Positions 3,284 to 48,590 of a stretch of DNA of 64,000 bases are shown here, piece by piece. The notes beneath the pieces were generated by a model that was not told the origin of the DNA, made no database searches, and worked only from the letters and a program-made list of their open reading frames with translations. This DNA is from Trypanosoma brucei (Eukaryota), in contig CH464491.1 in NCBI GenBank assembly GCA_000002445.1, forward strand, positions 1,312,001 through 1,376,000. The letters run 5' to 3'. Made by a program: the position numbers and the translations under genes. The first letter of the stretch is position 1. Each line of letters starts with the position of its first letter.

Positions 3284-6200
3284 TTGCCGCTGTGCATGCA
3301 CATCTGGCGGACCGCTGCAAGCAACTGGGTAAAGAGACACGCCCGTTCTAATGCGGCACGGTGGAGGCGCCCAGAACCCGCTTCATCAAGTGCGGCAGCC
3401 AAAACAATAGCAAGATTGCTCGCAGTTGGTGGCCACGGCTGCTGGTCAGAAGCAACCGCGCTTTATGCAGAAGCACTCGCAACAAAGTCTGTGCAGAGGT
3501 ACGGTGTTGTGACACCCGCGCACCGCCATGATTGTATTGCACTAATTCTCGGAGCTATGTCATCTTCTGTCGACGCCAGCGGCTCTGATATTAACAGGGG
3601 CGAGGAGTCACTCACACCCCATTATGGGATGTTGGCAGAACGCTTGTCGTTAGACATAATTGTGCCGCATAGTGATGTAGGACAGGAAGAGAAGGAGGCC
3701 GCCTCTGTCGCATGCATAGCGGTTTTCAGGGCGCTGTTAACCTCCGGTCGCACGCATGCTGTCCAGCGTTTTGCTCAGCAGTTGCTGCGAAGCAGAAACT
3801 CACGTGAACATGGATTGTGGGCGCTTCGCACAATTATGTTGGCAGTAACGGCAAGGGAAGAGGGAATGTACCGTCAGCTTTTTCTGCATAGTGGGCTGCT
3901 AAAAGATCTTGAACATCTCACGGGCCTTGACGCGTTCACGGTCGTGATGTCGTCGTGCGATGGCCACGAGAAAAATATTGGACCGTGTGGAGGGAGGACG
4001 GAAGGGAACCTTGGAAGAGATGAGGTACACCGTGTTGCGGCAAGGTGGTGCGTGGACGTGGCCCTGCACATGCACACGTGTCCTTGGAGATTCTGCTTGA
4101 CAAACGAGAAGGAGCCACGACGAGAAACGGCGTTTAACAGTGAAGTCACAAGCTATTGCTGTGCCAAAGAGCTTCCAATGCCGGCATTTGCGGTGACGAT
4201 GCTGCCATTTGAGGTGCTACGCAGCAACGCGGTCGGTGTGTTGCGCTGTTGTACTGCTGCTGGGAACGGCTCACATGGCAACGAGGTTGTTACCTTTGAT
4301 GGTACTGCAAGTAATGTTAGTGGCGGTCGTTCTGGTGATTCTACCAGTTGTAGCACAACCGCTCCATCGCTGGGACTTCCTGCACTTAAGCGTTTACAAG
4401 ATGTTGTTTCTGCTGCTATTGAGGTTCCTCTCTCCACATATGAGCCTGTTGAGTGCTTATACTTGCTACTTCAAATATCTCGTGACAGCACCGCCCCTGA
4501 CCCCAGGCGTGTGATGCCATCCACGATGAATATTTTGTGGTGGCGACGGCATCTGCAGAGTTGCGTCCTTGAATCTGTTAAATCGGCTGTTAGGTGGAAG
4601 TCGGTGTGCGACTTTGTTGGTTTGAGCCGCTTAGTCACAGAACGTGTGCCGCATTGTTTTCCCCTTCTGGTCGCTCACGCGGCCGAGTCCCCGGATGCCT
4701 TGAGGACACTGTTCAACGAGGTGTCGCGGCAGGAAGGCGCTGCAGCACATCCTGTGGACGACATCCCACGCTCGTGTGTGATGGGGCTCCTGCAGATGTG
4801 TGGAGATGAAAGATCCGCTGCCGTTATTGATTGGGTGGTAGAGCATTGTAAGGATCATGAGAGTATCGCACAATTCGTTTTGGACAGCCTTGGGCAGCAC
4901 CAGAAGCTTGCGTCGGTCGTCGTGCGGCGGCTCTTTCAGCGAAGTGAGCAAAGCTCGGACGTTATTAATGCGCTTTCGAGACTGCTTGAAAAGGGCACTT
5001 GCAGGACGCTATTGGCTGATGTTTGCTCACTTGTTCCCCAAGCCCAGCAGTGGACGGTAGCGCTGCGGTTTGTAAGCGGCATGTCGGCCCCAGAAGTTGG
5101 GCACGTCCACACCGCCTTCATGGCGTTTGTAGGGAATTGTGATGAGCAGTTTGCTATTAACATGGCACTCCTTTGGTCCGATGAGACCTTCACGTGGTTG
5201 AAGGCTGATGTGAACCCACCGCCCCGGCGGGTGTACATGGACGACAGATGGAGCGATGCGCTTCGTCTTGTAGCGCTGGGTGCGGAGCGGTTAACGCAGC
5301 GGCCGGAGTTGTTGGGAAAGTACATCCGTTATTTTTCTAAAAGGGTTGCGGTAAATTCTCGCCTGTACATGGAGTTGGAGGCGCTCTTAGCGTGCTCGAA
5401 GGTGGGCGGTGGTAGCGCACGTAACTGCGGCCGTTCTTCTAACTGGAATCCCATTGCCAGTACAGTCACTGGCGGTCCTCCCTTAGAAACTTCATTGGTA
5501 GGAGTACGAACCGGGGTGCTTCCGAAGGGTCAGCAGTGGATGGAGGCATGCGCACATGCATCTGAGGTGGGTGTCACGCGTGGAGTACTCGAGATCCTCG
5601 CGAAGCGTGGGAGATGGGAAGAGGCTACCATAGTGCTGGCGAGAGCGGAGGCGAAACGAAGAGTGGAGTGGGCCCCGCTAGTAATACGTGCCGCACGTCT
5701 TTCCAGTCAGTGGCGGGCTGCACTTTCCGTGGCAGAGAAAATTGCAGCCAACGGAATGAAACTGCATTACAGTGTAGTAGCGGAGTTACTTGCGTGCTGC
5801 TTTTCTGCCGATGTACCCCTTGAGGTGGTTCAATTGTGGCTGCACAGGCGTTCAGTTGGGGAAAGTACGTCCTCGCATGTACTTTTCGGTCTGGGCCCTG
5901 GTTCGAGCTTGAGGACCGAGCAGCGTGACGCCAACGACAAACACAACGTTTTCGGTGATGCATCGAGATGGCTGGGCTCGGCGCAGGCGGAGCTCTTTTT
6001 TGTCCTCCTTGAATCGTCTTCCAGTCGATCGTCGGATCATCAGTGGCGTTACGCCCTGCAATTGCTGAAAGAGCATGTGCTATTAAGTGGTGGTGTTCCG
6101 TCTGCACGGGTGTTCCGTTCTACATATTCCATATTACACCGGGCAGAGCGGTGGCGGGAGTCGCTGCAACTTTTGGGTCTGCAGCGATCTGTTTGCGGTT

Positions 6201-7864
6201 CCCCCACGGTTAAATGTGTGCACCTTGTACTGAGCACCTTGCCGAGCACAGCTTGGCAGTATGCTCTAGGAGCTCTCCAATGTATTCCGCCTGGAGATTC
6301 GGGTTCCATTCATCGTGTATTGCCCTTATTGTTACCGGTGTCGTGGGAGTCTGCATTAGGTTTAATGATTGATCATCGTGTCATGACAAATACAGCGATG
6401 GAGTGTGTTGTTGGTTGCGAGGACGTGCCCTTGGTCCTACGTCTGCAGGCATGGAGGCGTTTGTTGCCGTCGCTGCCCGTGTCCATGAAGCACCGTGCGG
6501 CACCGATTTATTTACGGCTGGCAGCTGGTGTTGCTGATGGTGATGTTGGTGTTGAAGGGACGAATGGTCTGGACGCGATGTGCGTCATTGAACGCTCGAT
6601 CCGGGGCCTACGGGGTGATTATATTAATTACGCATCGTTTGTATACCATCGTGCTTTGCTGCATCGCCACTGGTGTAATGACAGCCTTCACCCGAGTGGC
6701 GGTGTGGCGGCCTTCCGGGCACTTAGCGGCATTGCTGAGGTAGACCAACAGTGTGAAGTTAGTGCCGCTGCGTTGGAGCAGTTAAGCAACATTGTTGAAA
6801 GGTTGGAACAGGTGTGTGGAACGGTTAGTGCATCGACAGCAACACATGGTTCCCAACACCTGGAGCGCACGGTGCCGGTTGTAAACTCCGGTGAGATACT
6901 TCAGGGCTCAGCTCCCACGAATGCTAGGCGTGACCCTGAAACCCACTGTTTTTCCTTTGTTTCATCCTACTGGTTGTCCTTGTTTTATTTGTTTCGTTAC
7001 TGCCGTTGTGTAATCTCCAGTTCTTTATTCCCTTTTTTTTTAAAAAAAAAAGATCAGGGCAGTGGACTACCGATATTTGACGTCATGCGCCTACATACGG
7101 TCCGCGCGCCAATCATCACGCGAGCCGCTATGCGTGGCTACTCGGAGGCACGGAGCAACTATGACGGCACCTCTCTCCCTGCGTGGCCGGCACCAGGGAA
7201 GAAACCAACTTATCCCGCAGCACTGTCGGAGTTGAGACTGCCGCAGCCGCGCATGCGCAAGACTCGTACCGAATGGATGTATTACCACGGCCACGGCGGT
7301 TGCCCTGGAAAGTATGGGCCGTCACGAGAAATAGCTGACTTCGAATATGCGGATGGGACTCCGGCGAGCATTAGTGGACGCCGGTTCGCGTTTAAGCACC
7401 ACCAAGACCACTTGCTCGTACAGCTAATACGCGCTGCAGCCACTGTGGAGCGCTACGACGCGAGTGGGTTACTACCACGTATCCCTGGTACGGCTGAGCA
7501 ACGCAACTGGGACCCGGCCATTCCGCTTTTTCTTGATGATGTGGATGAGCAAGGCAGACCTGCACCGTTGCGCACTGCGGGCGACGCCCCGGGGACGATG
7601 GTTAGTCATGTGTGTTCCCGTGTTGTGGATGAACGGATGGGAACTCCCACGCATACGCCAAATGAACTCGCCAACCGTCACGAGGGAGAAACACTCGAGG
7701 CAAATACAATGTTTGCAACCAATGATCCGAGTGCCTTTGTGTCTGATACGGTGAAGTTGCGTGACGACAAGCGGCCTTACTGGTCGCGGCGCCGCTGGGC
7801 CCTAACAGATAAATTTTTGGTGCCTAAGAGCCCCAAACCAAAGAACACCATCAAGGACGAGTAG
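3284..7864 (+). CDS. Large hypothetical protein (1526-aa open frame; first ATG at 3296). Possibly two genes, see finding on internal polypyrimidine tract at ~6930-7085
   Basis: Long uninterrupted + strand ORF with coding-like composition. No recognisable catalytic motifs. The track start is TTG. Confidence 0.55.
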   Translation: MPLCMHIWRTAASNWVKRHARSNAARWRRPEPASSSAAAKTIARLLAVGGHGCWSEATALYAEALATKSVQRYGVVTPAHRHDCIALILGAMSSSVDASGSDINRGEESLTPHYGMLAERLSLDIIVPHSDVGQEEKEAASVACIAVFRALLTSGRTHAVQRFAQQLLRSRNSREHGLWALRTIMLAVTAREEGMYRQLFLHSGLLKDLEHLTGLDAFTVVMSSCDGHEKNIGPCGGRTEGNLGRDEVHRVAARWCVDVALHMHTCPWRFCLTNEKEPRRETAFNSEVTSYCCAKELPMPAFAVTMLPFEVLRSNAVGVLRCCTAAGNGSHGNEVVTFDGTASNVSGGRSGDSTSCSTTAPSLGLPALKRLQDVVSAAIEVPLSTYEPVECLYLLLQISRDSTAPDPRRVMPSTMNILWWRRHLQSCVLESVKSAVRWKSVCDFVGLSRLVTERVPHCFPLLVAHAAESPDALRTLFNEVSRQEGAAAHPVDDIPRSCVMGLLQMCGDERSAAVIDWVVEHCKDHESIAQFVLDSLGQHQKLASVVVRRLFQRSEQSSDVINALSRLLEKGTCRTLLADVCSLVPQAQQWTVALRFVSGMSAPEVGHVHTAFMAFVGNCDEQFAINMALLWSDETFTWLKADVNPPPRRVYMDDRWSDALRLVALGAERLTQRPELLGKYIRYFSKRVAVNSRLYMELEALLACSKVGGGSARNCGRSSNWNPIASTVTGGPPLETSLVGVRTGVLPKGQQWMEACAHASEVGVTRGVLEILAKRGRWEEATIVLARAEAKRRVEWAPLVIRAARLSSQWRAALSVAEKIAANGMKLHYSVVAELLACCFSADVPLEVVQLWLHRRSVGESTSSHVLFGLGPGSSLRTEQRDANDKHNVFGDASRWLGSAQAELFFVLLESSSSRSSDHQWRYALQLLKEHVLLSGGVPSARVFRSTYSILHRAERWRESLQLLGLQRSVCGSPTVKCVHLVLSTLPSTAWQYALGALQCIPPGDSGSIHRVLPLLLPVSWESALGLMIDHRVMTNTAMECVVGCEDVPLVLRLQAWRRLLPSLPVSMKHRAAPIYLRLAAGVADGDVGVEGTNGLDAMCVIERSIRGLRGDYINYASFVYHRALLHRHWCNDSLHPSGGVAAFRALSGIAEVDQQCEVSAAALEQLSNIVERLEQVCGTVSASTATHGSQHLERTVPVVNSGEILQGSAPTNARRDPETHCFSFVSSYWLSLFYLFRYCRCVISSSLFPFFLKKKDQGSGLPIFDVMRLHTVRAPIITRAAMRGYSEARSNYDGTSLPAWPAPGKKPTYPAALSELRLPQPRMRKTRTEWMYYHGHGGCPGKYGPSREIADFEYADGTPASISGRRFAFKHHQDHLLVQLIRAAATVERYDASGLLPRIPGTAEQRNWDPAIPLFLDDVDEQGRPAPLRTAGDAPGTMVSHVCSRVVDERMGTPTHTPNELANRHEGETLEANTMFATNDPSAFVSDTVKLRDDKRPYWSRRRWALTDKFLVPKSPKPKNTIKDE
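6938..7056 (+). promoter_or_regulatory. Polypyrimidine tract followed by T10/A10, embedded inside the 3284..7864 ORF; candidate trans-splice/polyadenylation signal region for a downstream gene starting at ATG ~7085
   Basis: Sequence ccactgtttttcctttgtttcatcctactggttgtccttgttttatttgtttcgttactgccgttgtgtaatctccagttctttattcccttttttttttaaaaaaaaaag is >85% pyrimidine and resembles intergenic spacers elsewhere in the window. Its translation is low-complexity (FPFFLKKKDQGSG). Confidence 0.4.
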
Positions 7865-8398: not shown

Positions 8399-10471
8399 AT
8401 GACCTCACTCTGTCCAATTACGAGTTCAATCACCGTAGCTATACGCAAGAGGCCAATCGCAAATAATGGAAACTCGGGAGACAAGGACATTGTTACATGT
8501 GAGGACTGTCGCACCATATCAGTGCACGAACCGAAGACACGCGTTGACCTTAAGGCAGTGGTGGAGACCTCAGCTTTTGCATTTGATTATGTATTTGATG
8601 AGTCTGTGGCAAACGATGTGGTATACAAGGTGTGCTGTCAACCGTTGCTGTCGGATGTACAGAACGGGGGAAGCGTTGTGGTTATTGCCTTTGGCCAGAC
8701 GGGCAGTGGGAAAACACACACCATGTTGGGTCACGGCAGCAAGACCATAGGGTTGTATGGATACGCCATTAGGGAGCTGATTGGCGAAGAAACCACTCGC
8801 AAGCTTGCGGTTAGCTTCTATGAGGTTTACGGTTCTAAGCTCTTTGACTTGTTGAATGGACGGACACAGTTGAAAATGATGCAGGATGAGGCTGACAATC
8901 TTCGGATTGTCGGGTTGTCGGAGAAAGTTGTCACATGTGACAAGGAGGTATATAAACTCATTTCAAAAGGAGAGTCGCTGCGTTCATCTGGGTCAACGCT
9001 CGCAAACGACACGAGCTCCCGATCGCACGCAGTGCTGGAAATCAAGGTTCTCAATTATCAGGGTGAGCCGCATGGTGGCCGAGTCACTCTTATAGATTTA
9101 GCCGGTAGTGAGCGGGCTGCGGATACGACAAGTAGTGATACAAGGGGACGACATGAAGGAGCTGAGATAAACAAGTCTCTGTTGGCCCTCAAGGAATGTA
9201 TTCGGGCCATGTCAAGGAACAGACGGCATATTCCTTTTCGTGCCTCCAAGTTGACGCAGGTGCTGCGTGAAAGTTTTATTGGTAATTGTAAGACATGTTT
9301 CATAGCGACAGTTTCACCCTTGCAGCGGCACTGTGAGGATACGCTGAACACGTTGCGGTATGCTAACCGCATAAGGGACCTTAAAGCCCCCTCCGATGAC
9401 GGCTTCAGCCGTAAGATATCGATGACATGCCCCAACTGCAATGGCCCCGTACGCCCTGATGCATCCCACACATGCGTGCGTTTGTCCACACGATGTCCGC
9501 ACTGTAGACAAGTGGTAGAAAAACATAACCTCGAAGGGCACATCGAGGAGTGTAGCGAGTTTCCCGTACGATGTCCTCGCTGTAATGAACTGTTAGTGCG
9601 CGGTGATATTCCACGGCACAATCGTCGTTGTTCCCGATCTCTAGTGCGCTGTCCGTTGTGCACATGCCACGTGATGCGCTGTGGTTTGGAGAAACACACT
9701 CTGATGGATTGCGGGGCCAAACTAGAGAAGTGTCGTTATTGTGGACAGGGGTTTCCACGTCACTCATTGAAGAGGCACGAAGACGTGTGCACGATGATGA
9801 AGATCGCCTGTCCTTATTGTCTGCAATATTTTAGAAAAGTTTGCGTAGATGCTCATGCCTCGGTGTGTGTAAGGAACCCAAACTGCAGGCGAGTGTCACC
9901 GTCAAGGATTAGGGATTCGGGTGAAGAGGTGTGGAAGATAACAAACGGAAAGGAATGGCGGCAACGGCCTCGGATGTTAAGGAACCAGTCGTTGAAGCAG
10001 CTTGAGGCAATCTCTCGAACAAAATCAAGTGTGCAGCTTCGGGAAGGGCGAAAACCCTTAGGGCCACTTGAAGACAATTTTTCACTTCCCGCTTTGCACG
10101 CACCCTCCTCAGCCCCCGACAGGAAACACCCACCGGTTACCAGCGCTTTCACCGAAAGCCTACAAAGTCACCCCAACAGCGAGGACGATGATGCCGACAA
10201 GGAAGTTTGCAGAACCGCCCCAACTATCAGTGGAGAAAATAGCAGCCGAGTTGGAGGTGAAGGTTGTGTTTGCCCTTACGCTGCCTATGGTTGCTTGCAC
10301 ACTGTGTGTGACTCTTCTCTAGAGAAGCATATGAAAGACTCGGTAGAAATGCATCTGCAATTGGTTCGTGACTACGCAGAGCGGGTTTCAGAAGAAAATA
10401 ACATTCTTCGGGAGCGTGTGAATGAGGGCACCACTAAGGCTTCAAAGCTTCATGAACTTGAAAGCGTGTGA
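8399..10471 (+). CDS. Kinesin-13 family motor protein with C-terminal TRAF-type zinc-finger repeats
   Basis: ATG start. Motor motifs GQTGSGKTHTM (P-loop), SSRSH (switch I), DLAGSE (switch II). Kinesin-13-type neck and loop (KTRVDLKAVVETSAFAFDYVFDE), as in MCAK. The C-terminal half has repeated C-x2-C...H-x3-C units (CPNCNG..., CPHCRQ..., CPRCNE..., CPLCTCH..., CRYCGQ..., CPYCLQ...) typical of TRAF-type zinc fingers. Confidence 0.85.
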   Translation: MTSLCPITSSITVAIRKRPIANNGNSGDKDIVTCEDCRTISVHEPKTRVDLKAVVETSAFAFDYVFDESVANDVVYKVCCQPLLSDVQNGGSVVVIAFGQTGSGKTHTMLGHGSKTIGLYGYAIRELIGEETTRKLAVSFYEVYGSKLFDLLNGRTQLKMMQDEADNLRIVGLSEKVVTCDKEVYKLISKGESLRSSGSTLANDTSSRSHAVLEIKVLNYQGEPHGGRVTLIDLAGSERAADTTSSDTRGRHEGAEINKSLLALKECIRAMSRNRRHIPFRASKLTQVLRESFIGNCKTCFIATVSPLQRHCEDTLNTLRYANRIRDLKAPSDDGFSRKISMTCPNCNGPVRPDASHTCVRLSTRCPHCRQVVEKHNLEGHIEECSEFPVRCPRCNELLVRGDIPRHNRRCSRSLVRCPLCTCHVMRCGLEKHTLMDCGAKLEKCRYCGQGFPRHSLKRHEDVCTMMKIACPYCLQYFRKVCVDAHASVCVRNPNCRRVSPSRIRDSGEEVWKITNGKEWRQRPRMLRNQSLKQLEAISRTKSSVQLREGRKPLGPLEDNFSLPALHAPSSAPDRKHPPVTSAFTESLQSHPNSEDDDADKEVCRTAPTISGENSSRVGGEGCVCPYAAYGCLHTVCDSSLEKHMKDSVEMHLQLVRDYAERVSEENNILRERVNEGTTKASKLHELESV

Positions 10472-11627
10472 ACCTGCAAATTAAATCACATGCCTCAGTG
10501 CGCACAAGCATATATCCACATATATTTGTTTATTTCTTTATATATCCGGCACGTATTTAGTTAATTGACAGAGCGGATTGCAGTTAATAGAGGACTTTTT
10601 TTTCCTGCAATCGAGTATATATATATTTTTTCGCTTTCTTTTTTCTTCGTTCCACTATGCCCGTGCTGCAGAGCCCCTGTTTTTAGTTTTTTTTACTATC
10701 CACTAGCGTAGGGTAACGCTTATGCTTACTAACTACCAGTTGCCTTTCCGGTATCGGCGAGGAAGGGAACGGAAGAGGTTTTTTTTAAAAAAAGATTAAA
10801 GGAAGAAGCGGTGACAGGTGTTGACGTACCGCAGTATTCTCATTCGGTTCAGTTCACGTTTCCTTCAATTGGTTTCTACTTTTTTTTTTGTTTAATCTTT
10901 CACTTTCTGCTTTCTCCCTTTTCCCTTTTCCCCTCCCCGCTTCCGTACCCCTATTTTCCTCTGGCCTCCGCCCTGTGGGCGAAAAAGGTGAGTAAATGTG
11001 TTACGAGTATGCAACTGTGCATAAATATATGAATAAATATATATATATATAACTAGAACAGTAAATAAGAGCATTGAATTGCGGTAACCCGTGGTGGTGA
11101 AAGGAGCTGCAACAAACTTGGAGGAAAGAAAAAAAAAGGAAATGAAAATGTGATTTCGCTCCCCTCCTTCCTTTCTTCCTTACACACATACTCGCTTCCC
11201 CTCCCCCCTCCCCACAATTTCTCTCTCATTTTCTCATTGGGAATTATGCTCCCGGCGACCGATGCATGTGAAGACGTGCCGTGTTGTTGTCGTCCCCCCC
11301 CGTGTGGTGTTATTACCATTGTGCTTTTGCATTATTGTTCTTTTTTGTTTGTTTGTTTGTTTTCATTTCAACAAATTGTTGGGTCCCCCTCCCTCCGCAC
11401 ACCCCTGATTGGGTATTCTGTTTTGCTTTGACGCGCACCCGTATTTTCTACCGTCGTTATTGTTGATTCCTGCTTACATCTCTGCTGTCGTTATCAGTAC
11501 ACTTATATTATGGTCAAGATGTTCGTCACTTAACTGACTAAATTAACCCAACATTGTTATTATTGTGAATATTAATGCTTTTATTTGTTGCTGGCGCTTT
11601 TTTTTTTCGAATTTATGCTTTTTCCTC

Positions 11628-11670
11628 CTATATATATATATATATATATATTTATTTATTTATTTATATA
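11628..11670. repeat. (TA)n / (TTTA)n microsatellite
   Basis: tatatatatatatatatatatatttatttatttatttatatata. Confidence 0.9.
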
Positions 11671-12279
11671 TAGTTTCATCGGTATAGGGCAGTGTGTATA
11701 TGTGTGAAGGAATGAGAGAAAAAGGAATTAGGGGGAGAGAGTAGAAGGAACCGAAGAAATGGAAAAGAAAGCGAGGGAAATGTGCCATCGGGTTGTGGTA
11801 TTTTTGGCCGCTAAATCAAGTATGTATGAAGAAATGCATTTAACAAATGAGCAAGTCATCAAGTGGGGTTGCAACTGCGGCCTCATTGGGTAACTACTTG
11901 CCGCATATGTGCGATGAATGGCATTCGTGTATATATATATATACGCATTTTATATTTCACCTTCATATATATTTGTGGTTCCATTTCATCAACTCATGTC
12001 TCAGTTGTATTACGTCTGACGTTATTCCCGCACGCTTGTTTTATTATTATTTTTTTCCTCCCCCTTTTCGTTTTTCCTCATTCCAATCCTTTTTAATAGG
12101 TAACAAGGTGTAGCTCCTCTCCTGTCCCTTTAGGTAATAGGGAGGGATTTTCCACCCGCGAAAGTGCGGTGTGTGTGCGTGTGGAAAAAACAAACCAAAT
12201 AATTAGTTCTTTAAAAAAAAAACAAAAAGAAGGAAGGGGGTAAGACGAGTTATTTTTGACTCGTGTCTTGGAGGGAAAT

Positions 12280-12609
12280 ATGCCGGGCATTGAGCGTCTT
12301 CGAGAAGAGGTGGAGCAACTGAGAAGTGAAACCAATAGACTAAAGGAAAATTTGAAATTGCAGAATCCACAAAGTGTCAGGGAGAGGAGCGGCTCGGACC
12401 GTCAGCATATGGAAGTGGAGTCATTTAGAGCTCAAATACGAAAGCATCACGCGGATGCCCCGATTTTGAAACTCCATGACGAATTATTAAGAGCGGAGCA
12501 GCGATGTACCCAATACGCCGATGCCTTGGCAGAAAGCAAAGGAAACTTCGTAAACATGAAGAGGCTCTACCAGGAACTCAGCGATATTCTTGACGGATGT
12601 TCAGCGTAA
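12280..12609 (+). CDS. Small coiled-coil hypothetical protein (109 aa from first ATG)
   Basis: ORF 12256..12609 has a TTG track start; first ATG is at 12280. Heptad-like charged sequence (IERLREEVEQLRSETNRLKENLKL). Sits in an otherwise long non-coding spacer. Could be spurious. Confidence 0.35.
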   Translation: MPGIERLREEVEQLRSETNRLKENLKLQNPQSVRERSGSDRQHMEVESFRAQIRKHHADAPILKLHDELLRAEQRCTQYADALAESKGNFVNMKRLYQELSDILDGCSA

Positions 12610-13454
12610 TGAAATGTTGTGTTTTTTTTTATATATTGTGGGGAAGTTTGGCTCCGCCCTTATTTGTGTCTTTTCCTCCCGTTTCCTACGGGGGAGGAGG
12701 GGGGAAAAAAACATCTAGTGGGGGGATTTCTTTTTTACCGCCCTTCAGTGCCGCCTCCTCGAGTTTCTGCGGCTTCGCTCGCTTAATTATTTGCTGTTTC
12801 GACTACTGTGAGGATGAGGGATCCATGAGATGTATTAGCTGTGGTGTTTCAATACAGCGATGAGTGAGGTGTTGTGTTCTCTTTTGTCTCATATTTTTCT
12901 GCTCCCCCTCTTTTTTTACATCTCCCTTTTCGCTTCACCGTGTGAGGCATACGAATTATCTGGCGGTTGTATTGTACATATTTGTATCTAAAGAGGAAAC
13001 GGCTGAAGTGCGAAGGGAAACATACAAATTGTGAGTTGCTGTCGTGTCTCATTTGCTTCAGTACAGGTGTAGTGCAGTGAAGTGTGACCATAATTTACTT
13101 CACAACTTCCCTTTTCGCTTCTTTTTACCACGGCTTGGTGAGTTTTTTTTCCTTTCTTTTTTTCCCCCTTAAATCTCGGATTCCCCGTAAGCGTCTGCTT
13201 TCAACATTGTGTTGGCGTCTGCTCACATAGCATCCACGTTTTTTTTTTTAAGGGGCAGTTACAAGGGCTTCTCACATCACGTGAAACTACAGGGGGGGGG
13301 GAAGTGCGGAAAGGGCTCTTCCGCAACACCGACTTCGTACGGTTTGTGTGTGGTAACGAAAGAAAAAAGTGGAAGTGAAGGCAGGGAAAGAACACCTTCC
13401 ACCTTCGGGTTAGGTAAATAAGTATAAGCATTACGTAAATAAAAGGCAGACAAC

Positions 13455-14495
13455 ATGAGGCCAGATTACATGGGTTTCATGTTCCTTACGAGCGGTGTAA
13501 TGTCGTTCAACGCGGGAATCTGGCAACTGCATCGCCGGCGGCAGAAGCGCCGTTTGATGGAAAACCACAAGAATATCCGCAAACCTCCAGTATATGAACT
13601 TCCACCAGGAGATGCCACCATCGACGAGTTTGAATTCCTCCCAGCCGCCTTCGAGGGCACATTTGATAACGAAGGCTCCATGCTTGTGGGCCCGCGTGCT
13701 CTTCCGACTTATAAGGGAGCCTCTTCAAACGAAGAGAGTAACGGGGGATTTCTGGTGGTGACGCCTTTTGAGATTGCCCACACCGGTCAGTTCATAATGG
13801 TGAACCGTGGCTGGGTTCCCATAGACGCCGGAAAGCACAGGACTCTCCTCATGCAGTACGTTGGCGAGGGTTTCACACCGGGTTCAGTGCGTGGCATATT
13901 CCGGCGTGAGGAATACATGTCTGCTTCACTAATTTGGGGACCGAATAAAGACAATGAGGGCCCCGTTGCCGCGGATTTATCGTGGCTGGTCATGCGCCCA
14001 TGGAACATGGCGGTCCACTACTACAAGCGCAGGTGGGGACCTGATCGTGCAGAGGAGTCGGTAGAAAAGCACGGTGCGCGGCATTACTACTTGGAAATGA
14101 TTGAGGACTATTCGGGAGATGACCAGCGAATGGTGCGCGGCCACCCGTGGCCATGGCGACGCAGCGTAGATGAAATAACTTACGTCCACTTACCCCCTTC
14201 TGTGCATACCATGTACATTTTCTTCTGGTTCTCTGTTACTCTGGGGTCTCTCTACGGTATGGGTAAATGCTACAAACGACAGAAGGAACTCTTTGCGCTG
14301 CGCAGGCAAATGACTGCACAGACAACACTGCTGGAACGGAAACGACAAGAGGAAGCGAAAATGTACATGGAGGCAATGAAGGAGGTGGAGCGGTTGAAGA
14401 AGTTGGGAACTGTCGCGGCACCGCGAATTGGGTCACAACCAACTGAACAACAGAAGTCAGATGAAAAGTCTCCCGCCTCAGGGGAGAAGTCGTAA
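13455..14495 (+). CDS. SURF1: SURF1/Shy1 family cytochrome c oxidase assembly protein
   Basis: ATG start. N-terminal TM helix followed by the conserved GIWQLHRRRQK motif (cf. GTWQVQRRKWK in human SURF1). Later VVTPFE...IMVNRGWVP matches the SURF1 VVTPF...ILVNRGFVP block. A second TM helix lies near the C-terminus (MYIFFWFSVTLGSLYG). Confidence 0.88.
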   Translation: MRPDYMGFMFLTSGVMSFNAGIWQLHRRRQKRRLMENHKNIRKPPVYELPPGDATIDEFEFLPAAFEGTFDNEGSMLVGPRALPTYKGASSNEESNGGFLVVTPFEIAHTGQFIMVNRGWVPIDAGKHRTLLMQYVGEGFTPGSVRGIFRREEYMSASLIWGPNKDNEGPVAADLSWLVMRPWNMAVHYYKRRWGPDRAEESVEKHGARHYYLEMIEDYSGDDQRMVRGHPWPWRRSVDEITYVHLPPSVHTMYIFFWFSVTLGSLYGMGKCYKRQKELFALRRQMTAQTTLLERKRQEEAKMYMEAMKEVERLKKLGTVAAPRIGSQPTEQQKSDEKSPASGEKS

Positions 14496-25354: not shown

Positions 25355-25908
25355 CCTGGGAAATGTTCTCTTCGGATAGCATGCACACAAGTATAGATAT
25401 AGCGGTGAATGGACCCATCACAGGGCACTCGGTTCGCCCCGGTCGGCGTACATGAGTTGGTGGGAAATGCCGCGAGTGTATCACGTTTTATGAAAGCCTT
25501 TTACATATATATATATGTACAGTGCTTACTGACTGCACCGGGCGATTGCTTGCCTCTGTTTGTGCCCCTTGTGTGGATGTGAATTGTTAGGACCGAATCA
25601 CGCCACAGCAGCTATCAGGCTGCACCATCGGAAGCCACTGGTTGCATCCCGGGGCGCACCACAATACACATCGTTTGCAGGTGTGGTATCCACCATGGGC
25701 AAAGGGGTTCGTTGGTCTGCCGGTTCGCTGCACGAAGCGTGTAGCTAACATCGTATTTCATACTTTATCTGTGGTTTTGCGCACAAACTTCCTGACCGTC
25801 GTACCTTCCTTCTATTTGTCAATTGCTGATACCCAAATCTATTTGGCGTGTGTTACGCACCTTTTTTTTTCACCTTCATTTGTTGCTAACCCTTCAAAGA
25901 GCAGTTGG

Positions 25909-27453
25909 ATGGCGAAAAAGGGTAAAAAGAATTCGGCGCCGCAGTTGGTGGCACCGGAGCCGGTGGCAGACGAGCTCGAGGTGGATATCCTGTGGGACGC
26001 CGTCAAAGAAGTAGATGATAAACCTCCTTTCATGGATGGGACACACCTGGACGCCACACGTGCGTTGTTCAAACTGGAGAAAACAGGACGCGGCGCACCG
26101 GATGTTCCGCACAATTTTTTCCAACTTCGGGAAAGAAACCTCAGCGTCGTGCGTGCCCGGGACCGTTTTGTGTTGGCTGAGCAGCGGCTGAAAGAGAGAA
26201 TGGAGGTGGACGAAGGCCTGCAGGACGATGATCAGTGTTTTCTATCACTGAAGCAAAGTGAGGGCGAAGAGTACCTGCGGGAGAGGAGAGCTGCCATGGA
26301 AAACATTGCTGGTGTTAAGTCAGCACTGGTGGAGGACCAACTCGGCTTGATTACACGTATGGAGGAGGCGGCCGAAGACTTCTTCCGAGGCTGGAATGAC
26401 TTATTAGAGGAGGTAACCGCACTCGCCACTGGGGACAGCAAAGTGAGCGCCGCGTTCGAAGAGAAACGAACTCTCACCAAAACGTTTAGGGAAGCGGAGG
26501 AACAGTATTTTCACGACCACGGGGAGCACGTTGTGGGCATCCGAGAAATGCGAAGGGAGACCAAGCGGCAGCAGGATGAAATGCTTCAGTCGATGGTAAC
26601 GCGTCTCGGGGCAGGTGTAGTGGAAATGGCAAGGTTGTCTGTGGAAGAACTAGAGGACAAGGCAGCCCAGCAAGAAGAAACAACGCGGCTTATTTCAGAA
26701 CTCATGAAGGTTCAAGGGAAGTCTACCGTGTTGGAAAAGCAGACAATTGCCATTAATGAGCACCGTGCCACGCTACAACGGTTGATAGATCTGGAGGTGC
26801 AAAAGCAGGAGTTCTGTATCCTGCGTCAGAAACAGATCGAGTCCGATTTGAAAACTCTTTCTGAAACTGTAAAGCACAACAACGAGCAGTTACTTCTCTT
26901 GTCAAGTAACGCCACTCCTTGCCAGGAATACAAAAAGCTGCTGCCGATGATCCCCACTTCTCCCAACACCATTTCCAACCTAACGAATGTGCAGGACAAG
27001 AGCCTGCTGTTGCTGACGGTGGAGGCTAAGCGGCAGCTTGAAGGGCTAGACGCTGAGCTGAAAACTCTGAAAGATGAGCTCGCTACACTTAGGAGGCGCC
27101 ACATTGTGCATCTAAGCGGCAAGTATAAACCAACAGCTACGGATGGGCCCCTAAGTGCCATGAAGAAAACTGCGGAGTTAGGTATCGAGACAACGAGCGC
27201 TATTCGGTCCGCAGTTCTAAACTCTTTGGAGCAGGTGTGCCGTTGCCTTGGATGTACGGAAGATGCAGAAGCACCTGGAGATTCTCTGGAGCGTCTTTTT
27301 TCCATAACAGATGTGGAAGAACGGAAAGCTGTACAATTGTACGTGTCGAGATGTATCAGTAAACTGTTTAGTTCGGAATGCCCTACGGCTTTGCCAGTTC
27401 CATTCCCCAGGAGTTCGAAGGGTATACAATGGGATATGTTGCCTTCACACTGA
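25909..27453 (+). CDS. Hypothetical coiled-coil protein (514 aa from first ATG, MAKKGKKNSAPQL...)
   Basis: Track ORF 25642..27453 begins at TTG; the first ATG at 25909 is preceded by a pyrimidine tract. Long heptad-rich charged sequence with many E/K/L/Q residues. Confidence 0.55.
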   Translation: MAKKGKKNSAPQLVAPEPVADELEVDILWDAVKEVDDKPPFMDGTHLDATRALFKLEKTGRGAPDVPHNFFQLRERNLSVVRARDRFVLAEQRLKERMEVDEGLQDDDQCFLSLKQSEGEEYLRERRAAMENIAGVKSALVEDQLGLITRMEEAAEDFFRGWNDLLEEVTALATGDSKVSAAFEEKRTLTKTFREAEEQYFHDHGEHVVGIREMRRETKRQQDEMLQSMVTRLGAGVVEMARLSVEELEDKAAQQEETTRLISELMKVQGKSTVLEKQTIAINEHRATLQRLIDLEVQKQEFCILRQKQIESDLKTLSETVKHNNEQLLLLSSNATPCQEYKKLLPMIPTSPNTISNLTNVQDKSLLLLTVEAKRQLEGLDAELKTLKDELATLRRRHIVHLSGKYKPTATDGPLSAMKKTAELGIETTSAIRSAVLNSLEQVCRCLGCTEDAEAPGDSLERLFSITDVEERKAVQLYVSRCISKLFSSECPTALPVPFPRSSKGIQWDMLPSH

Positions 27454-30023: not shown

Positions 30024-30240
30024 GTACGACGCCGCATATTATCCGTATTTTTTAGTTCGGTTTTTGCTCCTGTAGTTTTAATGGTATCGTAACGCTCTGT
30101 ATACATATTCCAAGTTATTCATGCTTATTAATTAAATTGTGTATCGTTTCTTTTTTTTAAAAAAAACCCTTTGTTCTTCTTGACGTTAGGCATATTATTG
30201 TTATAGTAGGGTATAGCCTTTACATTTTCGTCGTGTTAAA

Positions 30241-31059
30241 ATGTTTATCAGTGGGCTGTTCGTGTTGGCCGTGGCTCTGTGCTGCACGAACCCCACAGAT
30301 GGTTGCGACAGCAACTTCACATTGGCTCAAGTGCTGACGCTGTGTCAAATAACAGAACAGCTGAGGGGACTGAAGGAAGTTGTTATGAAAATTGGACCGC
30401 GAGCTGTTGAGGAAGCATTGTTTACTTTGAAGGCGAAGAAACGTAGTGAAGTATCTTTGAGGCGGGCAGAGGAGGCGGCGGAACGGGACCGCAACGCAGG
30501 TTTTGCGGCGGAACGGGCAAGGCTGGCGTATGATAGCGTTTGTGAGGCCGTTGAGTTTGCTGAGTATGCGGCGACAAGCATCGAGGGACGAGCGAGTTCC
30601 CTCCTAGTTATTCAGGAATATTATGTGCCATTCCTGGAAGATGTGATGCTCAGGGTTGGGACGGATGCGGAAGCTGCGGAAGCCCAAGAAGCCGCCATGT
30701 CATGTCTACAAACAAAAAGAAGTGTTTCACCAACGTCACTAAGTGAAGCGGCCTTGGAACTCCGGGTGAGATTAGGGGTCAGAAACTTTAGAGCGTTGAG
30801 GCGCGATCTCCACCGAGCGGCGTTTTGTCTCTATTCGTTGAAAAAGACGGCCGCGAAGATTGCGCTGGCCAGAAGTTCAGTAGAGGAAATAGAGTACCTC
30901 ATAAACGAAGCAGCAAATGAAGCAGAGTGCGTGTCTCCCCCCAAGGGAGGCATACAGGGACAGTTGCCATCGGATGAAAGTGATTCTTCAAATTTGGTCA
31001 CTGTGATTTCGGCCGTCCCGATATGTTGGTTATTGGCCACCATTACGCGTGTTTTGTAA
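30241..31059 (+). CDS. Ala/Glu-rich putative GPI-anchored surface protein (272 aa); GARP/BARP-like composition
   Basis: ATG start. Cleavable signal peptide MFISGLFVLAVALCCTNPTDGCDS. The mature region is Ala/Glu/Arg-rich and helical (RRAEEAAERDRNAGFAAERARLAYDSVCEAVEFAEYAATSIEG). The C-terminal hydrophobic tail AVPICWLLATITRVL is GPI-signal-like. Confidence 0.6.
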   Translation: MFISGLFVLAVALCCTNPTDGCDSNFTLAQVLTLCQITEQLRGLKEVVMKIGPRAVEEALFTLKAKKRSEVSLRRAEEAAERDRNAGFAAERARLAYDSVCEAVEFAEYAATSIEGRASSLLVIQEYYVPFLEDVMLRVGTDAEAAEAQEAAMSCLQTKRSVSPTSLSEAALELRVRLGVRNFRALRRDLHRAAFCLYSLKKTAAKIALARSSVEEIEYLINEAANEAECVSPPKGGIQGQLPSDESDSSNLVTVISAVPICWLLATITRVL

Positions 31060-31444
31060 CGATATGCCCTCACACGCATGCAGAGGGAATAAATCTGCAG
31101 GCGTAGCACCGTCCATGGTGCAGCGACTTGAGTATAAATGAAGTATGAGCGTGTTGTTTTACGTGCGTAACTTTATGTGAAAAATGTGCACGTGGGGCTG
31201 AGGCATGAATGCACGCATGTTTGCCTCGCGTTCACGCAGTAATGATAGTTTTCGACGTGTGTTGACGACACATTGCCCCTTACCTCCTTTTTTATTTTTT
31301 ATTTCACTTGTTAGCGTCATTACATTCGCAAAAACAGATGTGCAAAGTGTTTTTCATGTAAAATCTGTCTGCCTCCCCTTTACTGCCGTAGATACTGCAC
31401 GCTGTGCAATCGTGTTAACACGTGTATGTTCATTTAATTGCTCC

Positions 31445-31784
31445 CCTTAGCAGTGAATCTACGAAGTCCTCTTTCGCACATTCCACTGATGTGAACCACA
31501 CCCTCTCGCACATAATTAGTTATTGATTTAATACTGCATATAAATCTATTTTATATATATTTTAAATATTTACTGATGCTTTCTACCAGCCTTGAGGCGC
31601 ATGCAGTCGCCCAAAAATAAGTGGACATCGCAGTAGATTTATTGTGGAGTGATATCAATAAGCTTGCGCGTGTGTATATGAGACCCGTTTCCTCTCTTCT
31701 TTTTAGTGGTGCTCCTATTTTCCTTGTTTTGGTGTTTGTTTCTTCGTGTGTGTGTGTGTGTGTGTGTGTGTGATGCTGTTGCAT
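31445..31784 (+). repeat. Copy 2 of the ~330-bp direct repeat (longer (GT)n)
   Basis: Aligns base-for-base with 29698..30023 apart from tatattttt/tatatatattt, ttttt/tttct and the (GT) tract length. Sequences diverge immediately after gatgctgttgcat. Confidence 0.9.
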
Positions 31785-33036
31785 TTACTTGTGCCACCAC
31801 AAACTCCCCAGGCTTTTTTAACACTTATTTATTATAACTGTACCGTAAGGAAGGGGATATGGGCCCGCTGTGAAGCTGGTGCAAATGAGTTGGTTGGAAT
31901 GTAACAACGGATGGTCGGGGGAGGGGGCATATTGGATCCCTTCCTGGTCATCGCCAGCACAAACATCCGCCGAAACACCGCGGAAGAGCCATTGCTGAGG
32001 TAAATTAATCGGCGTGAGAAATGTCGTGGCTGCCAATGGGGCTCCATTGGTTTAAGAAGAAAAAAGAAAACACGGAGCGTCAGCTTCACAGAGCACTGTA
32101 AACAAACGCCTTAACCACCACCGGATCCCATGTTACGCTGCATCCATGCATTCTCAAGTGCTGGATGCGTTTGCGTTTGTATTTGTATGTGTGCGCTTCT
32201 CCTTGAAACAGTAAATATTTTACGCATTACATTTGACATTACGCATATTCCCTTTTCATATTCATTGAAAAAAGTGATGACAATATCTTTTATGCAAATA
32301 ATAATGAAATTCCACAACTATCGCTACCGCTTCAGTATTTTTCTTTCTCGTAACTGTTTCAACCTATTTTGTCATTGTATCCAAAAATATACATCACACG
32401 ATTCAGTACCACATCTTACAACATTTAATAGCATCTTCCTGCTTCCGGTTGCCGTTGTTCCCATTCACATTAATTTTATTCACAAACACTTACAAGCACC
32501 TTAACTTCTCTGTTGAAACATTCCCAATACAAAATGTTGTTTCCTTTTCATAAAAATAAAAATTATCAAGGGAAAACATAATAAGGGGTTAAAGTTATGA
32601 AATCAACTATTAATATATGATATAAACGATGGCTCAGTGTTTCCATCAACACGCGTATTCCTGCGACAAATGCTTTCCATATGTAATGTTAATCATCCTG
32701 AGCTTAATAATGGCAAAAAAAATAAATAAAATTAATCAATTCTGGCACAATGGTACGCACTCATTAGTTGTTTATGCTGATTGCACCTCAACTTTGATTC
32801 GGAGTGCACAACTCCATTGGCGTCAGGTTGGGCTGAAAGGACATTTACGACAACTTTTCCTTTCCGTATATTCCGTAACCTCTGTTTTATCATTATTATT
32901 CGTTATTCGTCACTTCTCTTGCCTCGTGCGCAGCTGGTGGAGGTGTGGCACCATTCAGCTCCGCAAAACGTGCAACAGTTAATGCCTTAACAATATTAAC
33001 GTCAAATTTGACGAGGTATTGTTTGACATCATTTTT

Positions 33037-35340: not shown

Positions 35341-36148
35341 GAAAAAGAGGTATCCGACACTGGCGGTTCAGGTTATCCATTGTGCTTTTCCACTAAATTA
35401 CACAGGATAAGATAGGGTGATGGTACATATTTGCTGAAGTGTAGTGATATCCATGCGCACACCCCGCGCTATCTTTGCAGGGGGTGCATCATATTCGGGC
35501 TTCGCCGCTCAGTGCAGGCACTTGGTGCCGTGGCCAGTTTTTGGTTGACCCGAAAATGGTTGTTGATGCAGCGCCGCATTAAAGTTTCTCCTTTGCTATG
35601 TGGCTGGATGGTGCGGCATCAGGAAAGCGTGCGGGCACGAGCGCCAGCACCAATGAGTTACGCAAGTCAGGTTACGCGCACTGGCTTATTTACCCCTAGC
35701 ATAAAAGTGTGGCGTGACAGAGTTACTAGTGAAAGCGACGATTTGCACCATATCTTGTAAATAGGCGATGGCCTGCGTATCTCAGAGGTGTGAAATGACT
35801 TCTATTCATGGATGTGCTGGTGGCCGCAAGCGTTGAAGCAACCTACTTCTACAGCTCTCATTCTTGTCCTACTCAAAAGACAGGACACCATCCGCTCATC
35901 GTCGAAGGCGTGGTGGAGTACGTCGCTTCCCTCGATCGTTTGTTCTTCGGTGGTGCCAGGGTCCAGTACCCCGTATCATCGGGGGAAGCCAAGAGCTACC
36001 AGTGTTACTCTCTTTTGGAACACTGCTTTGCTTAGACTACGGCATCGTACAGCACAGGGATCAGCAGCGTCTTGCTGGGACACCGTTTTTCGTTTGTCGG
36101 TCCCTGGGCACGTGCCAGCGTGCCATCAGCAGTATCATCCGCACTAAG

Positions 36149-43323: not shown

Positions 43324-43878
43324 CAGTCAGCTTTTGCTAATCTTAATTTGTTTAACTGAGATACTTACGTTTACACCTAAGCGGGAGAGCGAACTGACAC
43401 ACAGTTTACTACTTTTTTCTGAACTTGTTAACTATCGCTCGATTTTCGTTAGCATTCACCATTTGTTTTACTCGTATTTTAACGTGGAATCCTCTAATGA
43501 AATTACGGAAACGAACGACTTTATCTTTTCCTGCTTATGGACATTTACCACCTTACTCTTCCTCTCTATTTTTTGCTTTGCGTTCCTCTGTTCGTGGAAG
43601 GTGGTTACTTGATGCTTTACCCTCATAATTATATCTGTACGACTACAAAATTTTTGTTCACCATTAGCAAGCATAGCCGTTGCCTGTTTCTACAAAAAAA
43701 AAACAACAAGCGACAGGGTAAGTGAATGTATAGATTAAGCGGGATATTTATGTGAAAGTCTACTAGAGGAAAGCCGTTCAAAAGTCCAACTTCCCCCCAC
43801 ATAGGACATTTTAGTTGTGCTGAGAGGTGTACCTGCTAACTCGTGCGCTCGTGCGGGACTACAACGTGATCAAGGCAG

Positions 43879-48465: not shown

Positions 48466-48565
48466 TCGAGTGGCAGGATGAAAACGTTTTCCAATTATTC
48501 AGGTCGTGTGTTGGTGCAGTGGTTGGGTCTGGGTAAAATACTGTGTCCTTATCACTGAGGTAGTG

Positions 48566-48590
48566 AATATATATATATATATATATATAT
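48566..48590. repeat. (AT)n microsatellite
   Basis: atatatatatatatatatatatat immediately after the CALM gene. Confidence 0.9.

What the first reader, a model, noticed from the sequence alone, without database searches (positions are those of the whole stretch)
6930..7090. Intergenic-style polypyrimidine tract plus T10A10 embedded in a 1526-aa ORF; likely two genes read through
Within the 3284..7864 ORF there is a ~110-nt run of >85% pyrimidines ending in tttttttttaaaaaaaaaag. Its translation is low-complexity (SLFPFFLKKKDQGSG), and an ATG follows at ~7085 (MRLHTVRAPIITRAAMRGY...). Sequence of this kind is what drives SL trans-splicing and polyadenylation between kinetoplastid genes and is rarely tolerated in coding sequence. 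The simplest reading is an upstream gene (~3296..~6930) and a downstream ~260-aa gene (7085..7864) joined by a frame that is open by chance, or by an indel that removed the upstream stop codon.
Basis: seen in the sequence. Interest (0 to 1): 0.55.

Follow-up and report, generated by a model that had tools for sequence, protein, structure and literature searches.

The report
Two trypanosome genes annotated as one
The odd T-rich stretch inside a 1,522-residue Trypanosoma brucei "gene" is the RNA-processing signal between two separate genes (a helical-repeat protein and the mitochondrial ribosomal protein mL52); this was already visible in published RNA-seq and cryo-EM data, although public gene models still fuse them.

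Summary
The window is T. brucei TREU927 chromosome 11, and the ORF 3296..7864 is Tb927.11.4650 (XP_828541.1, 1,522 aa). The tract is real but overstated: it is 76% pyrimidine, not >85%, and T9A10, not T10A10. It is still the most pyrimidine-rich stretch in any long ORF of the window, and its codon usage is intergenic-like.

The two-gene reading is supported.
- The last 259 codons (ATG 7085) are mitoribosomal protein mL52, identical to PDB 6HIV chain Ao.
- mL52 stands alone, with the same start Met, in every other kinetoplastid examined.
- The upstream part has stand-alone orthologues of 1,084-1,200 aa with their own stop codons.
- Kolev et al. 2010 (Table S8) list a separate trans-spliced, polyadenylated transcript, Tb11.NT.57. 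Its 259-aa ORF begins at nt 65, which puts the 5' end at 7021, right after the first AG (7019-7020) following the tract. T9A10 therefore lies in the mL52 5'UTR.

So this is already known, although RefSeq, UniProt and PDB 6YXX keep the fused model.

One point is unexplained. The upstream gene has no stop codon of its own in any T. brucei-group genome read here. All four T/A-run length alleles seen keep the frame open, whereas about 2 in 9 random length combinations would.

The parts
3296..6907 (+). Upstream gene: a Trypanosoma-specific, all-alpha, weakly PPR-like protein. The N-terminus is basic and has no acidic residue before E27, as in a mitochondrial presequence. The core conserved across Trypanosoma ends near 6820, the tail shared with T. 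congolense ends near 6877, and the T. congolense stop aligns near 6907-6930.
   Evidence: Orthologue alignments. pN/pS about 0.3 among T. brucei-group strains. Only Trypanosoma-type homologues plus two weak PPR hits among 1.84 billion representatives. hhalign to a PPR protein gives 87% probability, E 3.9e-6. No Pfam hit. AF2 model is all-helical but low confidence.
6908..7018 (+). Non-conserved stretch with no in-frame stop. It contains two polypyrimidine tracts (6942-6971 and 6974-7011), which are the trans-splicing signal for mL52 and presumably the zone where the upstream mRNA is polyadenylated.
   Evidence: Pyrimidine statistics. Intergenic-like codon score. Tract coordinates by the definition of Kolev et al., and no AG anywhere in 6940-7018. 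Stops are present in the other two frames.
7019..7020 (+). AG dinucleotide, the inferred spliced-leader acceptor of the mL52 mRNA.
   Evidence: In Tb11.NT.57 the ORF starts at transcript nt 65, so the transcript begins at 7021. This is the first AG after the tract, and position -3 is C. If the 39-nt SL were counted in the transcript, the site would follow GG instead, which is unlikely because 98% of major sites follow AG.
7021..7084 (+). 64-nt 5'UTR of the mL52 mRNA, with no upstream ATG.
7033..7051 (+). T9A10 homopolymer pair, which varies in length among T. brucei-group strains: T9A10 (TREU927, T. equiperdum OVI), T6A10 (DAL972), T7A9 (IVM-t1), and T7A6 as inferred from the 6YXX sequence. 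It is absent from the T. cruzi and T. vivax intergenic regions.
7085..7864 (+). mL52 coding sequence (259 aa plus stop), a protein of the mitochondrial large ribosomal subunit. Residues 1-18 (7085-7138) are a probable cleaved presequence (MRLHTVRAPIITRAAMRG | YSEA).
   Evidence: Identical to PDB 6HIV/6HIX chain Ao. The 7AOI chain covers residues 19-151. Weak match to mammalian MRPL52. Ten-species alignment with a shared start Met and a conserved R-x-[FY]-S-E motif.

Best explanation
Window 3296..7864 holds two genes of one T. brucei polycistron that public annotation merges as Tb927.11.4650. The upstream gene encodes a Trypanosoma-specific helical-repeat protein of about 1,180-1,200 aa that is weakly PPR-like. 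The downstream gene (ATG 7085, 259 aa) encodes mitoribosomal protein mL52. The pyrimidine-rich stretch 6942-7011 is the polypyrimidine tract that directs spliced-leader trans-splicing at the first AG downstream (7019-7020). The mL52 mRNA therefore starts at 7021 and carries T9A10 in a 64-nt 5'UTR. mL52 is translated from its own AUG and imported through its own N-terminal presequence. In the T. brucei lineage the upstream gene lost its stop codon, and its frame happens to run through about 60 non-conserved codons in phase with mL52, which is why ORF finders and annotators fuse them. Shown here: the separate transcript, the separate orthologues, the identity of mL52, and the non-coding composition of the junction. 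Inferred: the exact acceptor position (from the ORF offset in the published transcript), coupled polyadenylation of the upstream mRNA just upstream, and how the upstream protein terminates.
For: The window ORF is identical to TREU927 XP_828541.1. The gene id follows from the neighbouring SURF1 and POLIB genes and from the T. evansi paper's tables. mL52 is identical to the 259-aa chain Ao of 6HIV/6HIX. Forty-eight kinetoplastid homologues are all 162-353 aa and none is fused; the ten aligned start at the same Met. In-frame stops lie 9 and 27 nt upstream of the mL52 ATG in T. cruzi and T. vivax. Upstream orthologues end with their own stops 239-253 nt before mL52. Leishmania and Bodo have unrelated genes upstream of mL52. 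Kolev et al. 2010 Table S8 lists Tb11.NT.57, orf_1_65_841, 259 aa, with a sequence identical to window 7085-7861 and the overlapping annotation Tb11.02.2250. That paper defines novel transcripts as trans-spliced and polyadenylated. AG 7019-7020 is the first AG after the tract, position -3 is C, and the UTR has no upstream ATG. Pyrimidine content and codon score are intergenic-like.
Against: The upstream ORF has no stop codon before 7862 in TREU927, DAL972, T. equiperdum OVI, IVM-t1 or the 6YXX sequence. A simple two-gene model therefore leaves the upstream mRNA without a stop. All four T/A-run alleles keep the frame open, although only 2/9 of length combinations would. This hints that translation across the junction may matter. 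The chance of an open frame here is only 3-7% by dinucleotide shuffling. I could not see SL or poly(A) read positions directly: Kolev Tables S4/S5 were not searchable for this gene and the Siegel supplement is not held.
Confidence: 0.88

Rival explanations
1. The fusion is genuine and T. brucei-specific. A long mRNA spanning both ORFs is translated into a 1,520-1,522-aa precursor that is imported through the upstream protein's N-terminal presequence. The mitochondrial processing peptidase then cuts it at the internal mL52 presequence (..AAMRG|YSEA..) and releases mL52. This could operate alongside the separate mL52 mRNA.
For: The upstream ORF has no stop of its own in any of the T. brucei-group sequences. 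The four T/A-run alleles (19, 16, 16 and 13 nt) all preserve the frame and avoid the TAA that a T-run of 8 or 11 would create. Both halves look mitochondrial: the upstream N-terminus is basic with no acidic residue, the upstream protein has weak PPR similarity, and the downstream half is mL52. The 7AOI chain begins at residue 19, right after R17-G18, which fits peptidase cleavage in either model.
Against: A separate trans-spliced mL52 transcript exists. Junction codon usage is intergenic-like. No other kinetoplastid fuses these genes, and the upstream neighbour is not even conserved outside Trypanosoma. The allele sample is small, with about 2-3 independent events, giving p roughly 0.01-0.05. 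T. evansi STIB805 is reported as frameshifted in this ORF. A frameshift would only restore a normal stop, so it is unclear what would be selected.
Confidence: 0.08
2. The genes are separate, but the upstream gene is terminated unconventionally. Either its mRNA is polyadenylated after an in-frame U or UA within 6908-7041, so that the poly(A) tail completes a UAA stop, or it is a true non-stop mRNA whose product is made at low level or degraded.
For: There is no in-frame stop. The zone is full of in-frame codons beginning with T. The upstream gene is under purifying selection, pN/pS about 0.3, so it must be expressed somehow. Polyadenylation in T. brucei is coupled to downstream trans-splicing and uses several closely spaced sites per gene. 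The precedent of stop codons completed by polyadenylation in Blastocystis nuclear genes is from my own knowledge and was not checked here.
Against: No poly(A) site data for this gene could be retrieved. This model does not explain why frame-preserving alleles predominate.
Confidence: 0.3
3. The open frame is a sequencing or assembly error in the homopolymer run, and the true genome has a stop (for example T8, which gives TAA at the T/A boundary).
For: Any +/-1 change in either run creates a stop before the mL52 ATG. The T. evansi STIB805 model is 2 nt shorter and flagged as frameshifted.
Against: Four independently produced assemblies (TREU927, DAL972, T. equiperdum OVI, IVM-t1) and the sequence deposited with 6YXX all have in-frame alleles, with four different run lengths.
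Confidence: 0.02

Closest known systems
Kinetoplastid inter-ORF processing region (polypyrimidine tract plus AG spliced-leader acceptor, coupled to upstream polyadenylation)
   Same: It has two pyrimidine tracts of 30 and 38 nt, and the first downstream AG is used. Position -3 is not G. The 5'UTR is short with no upstream ATG. A mapped trans-spliced, polyadenylated transcript starts there. The T. cruzi orthologous gap also has a pyrimidine tract followed by AG just upstream of the ATG.
   Different: It is not flanked by an upstream stop codon, so the whole signal lies inside an uninterrupted reading frame that annotation treats as coding.
mL52 / MRPL52, mitochondrial large-subunit ribosomal protein
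   Same: 100% identical to the T. brucei cryo-EM chain (6HIV). Homologous to the kinetoplastid chain in 7AIH/7AM2/7ANE (E 3.6e-97). Weak but specific match to mammalian MRPL52 (E 0.0016-0.0095).
   Different: About twice the length of the mammalian protein (259 vs 124-160 aa). In T. brucei databases it is hidden inside a 1,522-aa model.
Novel transcripts inside or beside annotated ORFs reported by T. brucei RNA-seq re-annotation (Kolev et al. 2010; Siegel et al. 2010)
   Same: This locus is one of the 27 entries in Kolev's Table S8. Siegel et al. likewise used visible polyY tracts inside predicted N-terminal extensions as evidence against coding.
   Different: Most such cases are over-long N-terminal extensions or unannotated small ORFs. 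Here two conserved full-length genes are joined because the upstream stop is truly missing.
PPR (pentatricopeptide repeat) proteins of trypanosome mitochondria
   Same: The upstream protein is predicted to be all-alpha with about 59 helices. It shows W-x-x-A-L repeat motifs and an hhalign match to a bona fide PPR protein over about 176 columns.
   Different: No Pfam PPR model matches, even at E<=1. Membership is unproven.

Membership tests
SL trans-splice acceptor region (kinetoplastid) | Polypyrimidine tract within about 200 nt upstream of the splice site | tested here: met
   Tracts at 6942-6971 (30 nt) and 6974-7011 (38 nt) by the definition of Kolev et al.. The region is the pyrimidine maximum among all long-ORF windows.
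SL trans-splice acceptor region (kinetoplastid) | AG dinucleotide immediately upstream of the exon, no G at -3, first AG after the tract | tested here: met
   AG at 7019-7020, position -3 is C, and no other AG in 6940-7018. The rule is quoted from Kolev et al..
SL trans-splice acceptor region (kinetoplastid) | Experimentally mapped SL addition giving a separate capped, polyadenylated mRNA | tested here: met
   Published transcript Tb11.NT.57 with the ORF at nt 65-841. Novel transcripts are defined as trans-spliced and polyadenylated. The exact nucleotide is inferred from the ORF offset; I did not see the reads.
SL trans-splice acceptor region (kinetoplastid) | Coupled polyadenylation of the upstream mRNA a short distance upstream | not testable with these tools
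   No poly(A) site data for Tb11.02.2250 could be retrieved.
mL52 (mitoribosomal LSU protein) | Sequence identity or homology to a protein built into a mitoribosome structure | tested here: met
   259/259 identical to 6HIV chain Ao. E 3.6e-97 to the 7AIH chain. E about 1e-3 to mammalian MRPL52.
mL52 (mitoribosomal LSU protein) | Own start codon and N-terminal mitochondrial presequence | tested here: met
   The start Met is invariant in 10 orthologues. The N-terminus is basic with no acidic residue before the conserved R-x-[FY]-S-E motif. The 7AOI chain starts at residue 19. Cleavage itself was not tested.
Single fused gene / polyprotein | The fusion is conserved in orthologues, or the junction shows coding-type constraint | tested here: not met
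   No fused orthologue among 48 homologues. The genes are separate, with stops, in T. congolense, T. cruzi and T. vivax. The junction codon score is intergenic-like.
Single fused gene / polyprotein | Reading frame maintained under indel mutation | tested here: inconclusive
   4 of 4 alleles are in frame against a 2/9 expectation. However, there are only about 2-3 independent events, and T. evansi is reported as frameshifted.
PPR protein (upstream gene) | Tandem 35-residue helix-turn-helix repeats recognised by PPR profile models | tested here: inconclusive
   No Pfam PPR hit at E<=1. phmmer gives weak hits to two true PPR proteins, E 1.5e-5 and 1.9e-4. hhalign gives 87% probability. The AF2 model is all-helical but has pLDDT 46.

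The most novel reading that the evidence does not exclude
In the T. brucei lineage the upstream PPR-like gene has lost its stop codon for good, and selection now keeps its frame open across the mL52 splice-acceptor region. Under this reading, part of the protein is made as a PPR-mL52 precursor, or else the stop codon is supplied only by polyadenylation. That would make this a nuclear gene pair caught in transition between separate cistrons and a mitochondrial polyprotein, with an SL acceptor and a length-variable T/A run embedded in translated sequence.
Probability: 0.12. Interest if true: 0.6.

Novelty: already known. Interest (0 to 1): 0.25.

Why it matters
The main value is to annotation. 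RefSeq (XP_828541.1), UniProt (Q385V2), the orthologous models in T. b. gambiense and T. equiperdum, and the PDB 6YXX/6YXY sequence all carry a 1,520-1,522-aa chimera. As a result, T. brucei has no separately listed mL52, and an uncharacterised Trypanosoma-specific helical-repeat protein is labelled as a ribosomal component. RNAi, tagging, proteomic and orthology results attached to Tb927.11.4650 mix two proteins. The T. evansi genome paper's remark that this is the most diverged mitoribosomal CDS is an example. The smaller biological point is that a conserved, selected gene appears to lack a stop codon, which makes a cheap test case for how trypanosomes handle non-stop or read-through mRNAs.

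Tried and rejected

- Word-indexed homologue searches for the upstream protein returned only the T. brucei cluster and T. congolense, even with a four-species profile. The exhaustive search was needed.
- Pfam gave nothing for the upstream protein at E<=1.
- The AF2 model of the upstream protein had mean pLDDT 46, so I did not run a fold search on it.
- A PDB sequence search with the T. cruzi upstream orthologue hit only the fused 6YXX deposit. The upstream protein therefore has no separate chain entry in the PDB, and whether it is modelled in 6YXX could not be checked.
- T. congolense DNA was not obtainable, so I could not test whether an indel or a substitution removed the ancestral stop. I only note a cluster of three +2-frame stops (TAG gcg TGA ccc TGA, 6925-6939) where the T. 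congolense protein ends by alignment.
- No exact-product contig exists for the 259-aa protein.
- Literature look-ups for mL52 or the accession numbers found nothing relevant.
- The supplements of Vasquez 2014, Nilsson 2010, Siegel 2010, Tobiasson 2021 and the 2026 Kozak paper held nothing for this gene.
- Rfam found nothing in the window.

**Readings considered and rejected**
- Homopolymer sequencing error, because of the multiple independent assemblies.
- The upstream ORF being spurious or a pseudogene, because it has orthologues and pN/pS is about 0.3.
- A conserved functional linkage between the two genes, because Leishmania and Bodo have unrelated upstream neighbours.
- Programmed -1 frameshifting at the U UUU UUA heptamer within T9A10. 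The -1 frame only yields an unconserved 1,312-aa product, and nothing supports it.
Full report
**What is in the sequence**

The ORF 3284..7864 exists, with 1,526 codons from TTG and 1,522 from the ATG at 3296. It has no in-frame stop through 6930-7090. The junction reads ...cccactgtttttcctttgtttcatcctactggttgtccttgttttatttgtttcgttactgccgttgtgtaatctccagttctttattccc T9 A10 gatcagggcagtggactaccgatatttgacgtc ATG.

The run is T9A10 (7033-7051), not T10A10. The region 6940-7041 is 76% pyrimidine, with a best 100-nt window of 78%, not >85%.

The feature is still exceptional for coding sequence.
- Windows lying inside long ORFs average 47% pyrimidine (sd 6.5%), and none outside this spot exceeds 71%.
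- The only other homopolymer of 9 or more inside a listed ORF lies upstream of that ORF's first ATG.
- A codon-usage log-odds score trained on the window's other ORFs drops in 6896-7075 to -0.16 to -0.34 per codon. That is the intergenic mean and lies below the minimum of all training coding windows. The score recovers at 7076.

**Where the window comes from**

The 1,522-aa product is identical to T. brucei brucei TREU927 XP_828541.1 / UniProt Q385V2. The neighbouring genes are a calpain-like protein, a kinesin with a zf-TRAF domain, SURF1 and the family-A polymerase POLIB.

POLIB is Tb927.11.4690. The T. evansi genome paper lists Tb927.11.4650 as a roughly 4.57-kb mitoribosomal LSU coding sequence at the matching distance upstream of Tb927.11.4680 and Tb927.11.4690. 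The fused ORF is therefore Tb927.11.4650, formerly Tb11.02.2250.

**The downstream part is mL52**

The 259 residues from ATG 7085 are identical to chain Ao ("mL52") of the T. brucei mitoribosome structures 6HIV/6HIX. They are homologous to the kinetoplastid mL52 chain of 7AIH/7AM2/7ANE and weakly similar to mammalian MRPL52. The 7AOI chain covers residues 19-151, so it starts just after ..AAMRG.

Forty-eight homologues from across the Kinetoplastea were found, from T. congolense (81% identity) to Bodo saltans. They are 162-353 aa long and none is fused. In a ten-species alignment every one starts at the Met that aligns with 7085, followed by a basic presequence and a conserved R-x-[FY]-S-E motif. 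In T. cruzi and T. vivax, in-frame stops lie 9 and 27 nt upstream of that ATG.

**The upstream part is a separate, real gene**

T. congolense encodes a stand-alone 1,200-aa orthologue at 51% identity. In T. cruzi the order is calpain, then a 1,084-aa gene with its own stop, then a 253-nt gap, then mL52. In T. vivax it is a 1,152-aa gene followed by a 239-nt gap.

The core conserved across Trypanosoma ends at T. brucei ...LEQLSNIVERLEQVCG, about nt 6820. T. congolense shares roughly 20 more residues, to about 6877, and stops about 10 codons later. Among T. brucei-group strains the upstream ORF has pN/pS of about 0.3, so it is under purifying selection.

An exhaustive search of 1.84 billion representative proteins found only four clear homologues: the T. 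congolense, T. vivax and T. cruzi-type proteins and one unnamed 1,298-aa sequence at 29% identity. Two further weak hits are bona fide PPR proteins. A profile comparison with one of them gives 87% probability and E 3.9e-6 over 176 columns, aligning W-x-x-A-L repeat motifs. Pfam PPR models do not match. The AF2 model is all-helical but low confidence, so I did not run a fold search on it. "PPR-like helical-repeat protein, probably mitochondrial" is therefore an inference, not a result.

Leishmania and Bodo have unrelated genes upstream of mL52, while the zf-TRAF kinesin downstream is conserved. The two halves of the fused ORF thus have no conserved linkage outside Trypanosoma.

**Direct RNA evidence already exists**

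Kolev et al. 2010 (PLoS Pathog 6:e1001090) list novel transcripts whose ORFs have annotated T. cruzi or L. major homologues in Table S8. One entry is Tb11.NT.57, orf_1_65_841, 259 aa, with hits to Tc00.1047053506227.110 and LmjF13.0140 and the overlapping annotation Tb11.02.2250. Its predicted sequence is identical to window 7085-7861. In that paper, novel transcripts are trans-spliced and polyadenylated.

An ORF starting at transcript nt 65 puts the first transcript nucleotide at 7021, immediately after AG 7019-7020. That AG is the first one downstream of the pyrimidine tracts at 6942-6971 and 6974-7011. Position -3 is C, and the 64-nt leader has no ATG. This matches the acceptor rules stated in the same paper.

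If the 39-nt SL had been counted within the transcript, the site would follow GG instead, which is unlikely. I did not see the reads themselves, so the acceptor coordinate is inferred from the published ORF offset.

**Verdict on the interpretation**

This is not new. The transcript was catalogued in 2010, and the 2018 cryo-EM deposit uses the 259-aa protein.

The fused model nevertheless persists in RefSeq and UniProt for TREU927, DAL972 and two T. equiperdum genomes, and in the 1,520-aa "mL52" sequence of 6YXX/6YXY. It also affected the T. evansi paper's comparison of mitoribosomal genes.

**What remains unexplained**

The upstream gene has no stop codon of its own. This is not an assembly error. 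Four independent assemblies and the 6YXX sequence all keep the frame open, with four different alleles: T9A10, T6A10, T7A9 and T7A6, the last inferred from the protein.

Simulation shows that the frame stays open only if the T-run length is not 2 mod 3 (otherwise a TAA forms at the T/A boundary) and the total length is 1 mod 3. That is 2/9 of length combinations. Any +/-1 change gives a stop before the mL52 ATG. All four alleles meet this condition. With perhaps two or three independent events, this amounts to p of roughly 0.01-0.05, which is suggestive but underpowered.

The T. evansi STIB805 model is 2 nt shorter and flagged as frameshifted. Where its frameshift lies is unknown, and that strain lacks kDNA.

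Dinucleotide shuffles give a 3-7% chance that a stretch of this composition is open in the upstream frame.

The possible outcomes for the upstream message are:
- a non-stop mRNA;
- a UAA stop completed by polyadenylation;
- a long read-through mRNA encoding a fusion precursor that is cut at the internal mL52 presequence.

None of these could be tested here.

**Scores**

However, the explanation is ordinary kinetoplastid gene architecture plus an annotation error already exposed by published data. Interest is therefore low, with a modest residual for the missing stop codon and the frame-preserving alleles.

Noticed in passing
window 7033-7051; L002 and L003 equivalents: The T/A homopolymer pair differs in length among T. 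brucei-group genomes (T9A10, T6A10, T7A9, and T7A6 inferred from PDB 6YXX). Every allele preserves the fused reading frame, whereas only 2/9 of length combinations would. The rest of 6860-7100 is identical in all four assemblies.
   Followed up: partly
window 6925-6939: Three stop codons lie in the same (+2) frame within 15 nt (TAG gcg TGA ccc TGA), about where the T. congolense orthologue ends by alignment. A one-base frame change upstream of them could be how the ancestral stop was bypassed.
   Followed up: no
window 30151-30166: A second TnAn pair (T8A8) sits about 75 nt upstream of the ATG of ORF 30241..31059, in an unambiguous intergenic region. It has the same relative position as T9A10 before mL52.
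   Followed up: no
window 8399-10471; L008 9920-12091; L009 9158-11407: The gene after mL52, a kinesin with a zf-TRAF-type zinc-finger region, is its downstream neighbour in T. brucei, Leishmania enriettii and Bodo saltans. In T. cruzi and T. vivax the called genes after mL52 are a small hypothetical, SURF1 (T. cruzi only) and POLIB, and no kinesin was called there.
   Followed up: partly
window 25642-27453: This mechanically listed ORF starts at TTG. Its first ATG is at 25909, just downstream of a T9 run (25862-25870) and a pyrimidine-rich stretch. The real gene probably starts at 25909.
   Followed up: partly
Kolev et al. 2010 Table S8 (PMC2936537, supplementary file 24): The 'Query_seq' column of the held copy is out of register with the other columns. 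For example, the Tb11.NT.57 row carries the sequence that belongs to Tb3.NT.43. For Tb11.NT.57 the ORF length (259 aa) and the predicted-sequence column agree with each other.
   Followed up: partly
T. evansi STIB805 TevSTIB805.11_01.4800 (PMC4288722, supplementary tables): The T. evansi orthologue of the fused model spans 4,567 nt against 4,569 nt in TREU927. It is flagged 'ORF frameshifted: Yes' with 24 amino-acid mismatches. If the 2-nt difference lies in the T/A run, this akinetoplastic strain would have restored a stop between the two genes.
   Followed up: no
window 10471-13455, 31059-35864, 43323-46987, 48465-51507: There are long stretches on the coding strand with no ORF of 250 aa or more. 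The first is markedly AT-rich and T-skewed (GC down to 0.25 near 11500-11700). They may hold long UTRs or small genes.
   Followed up: no
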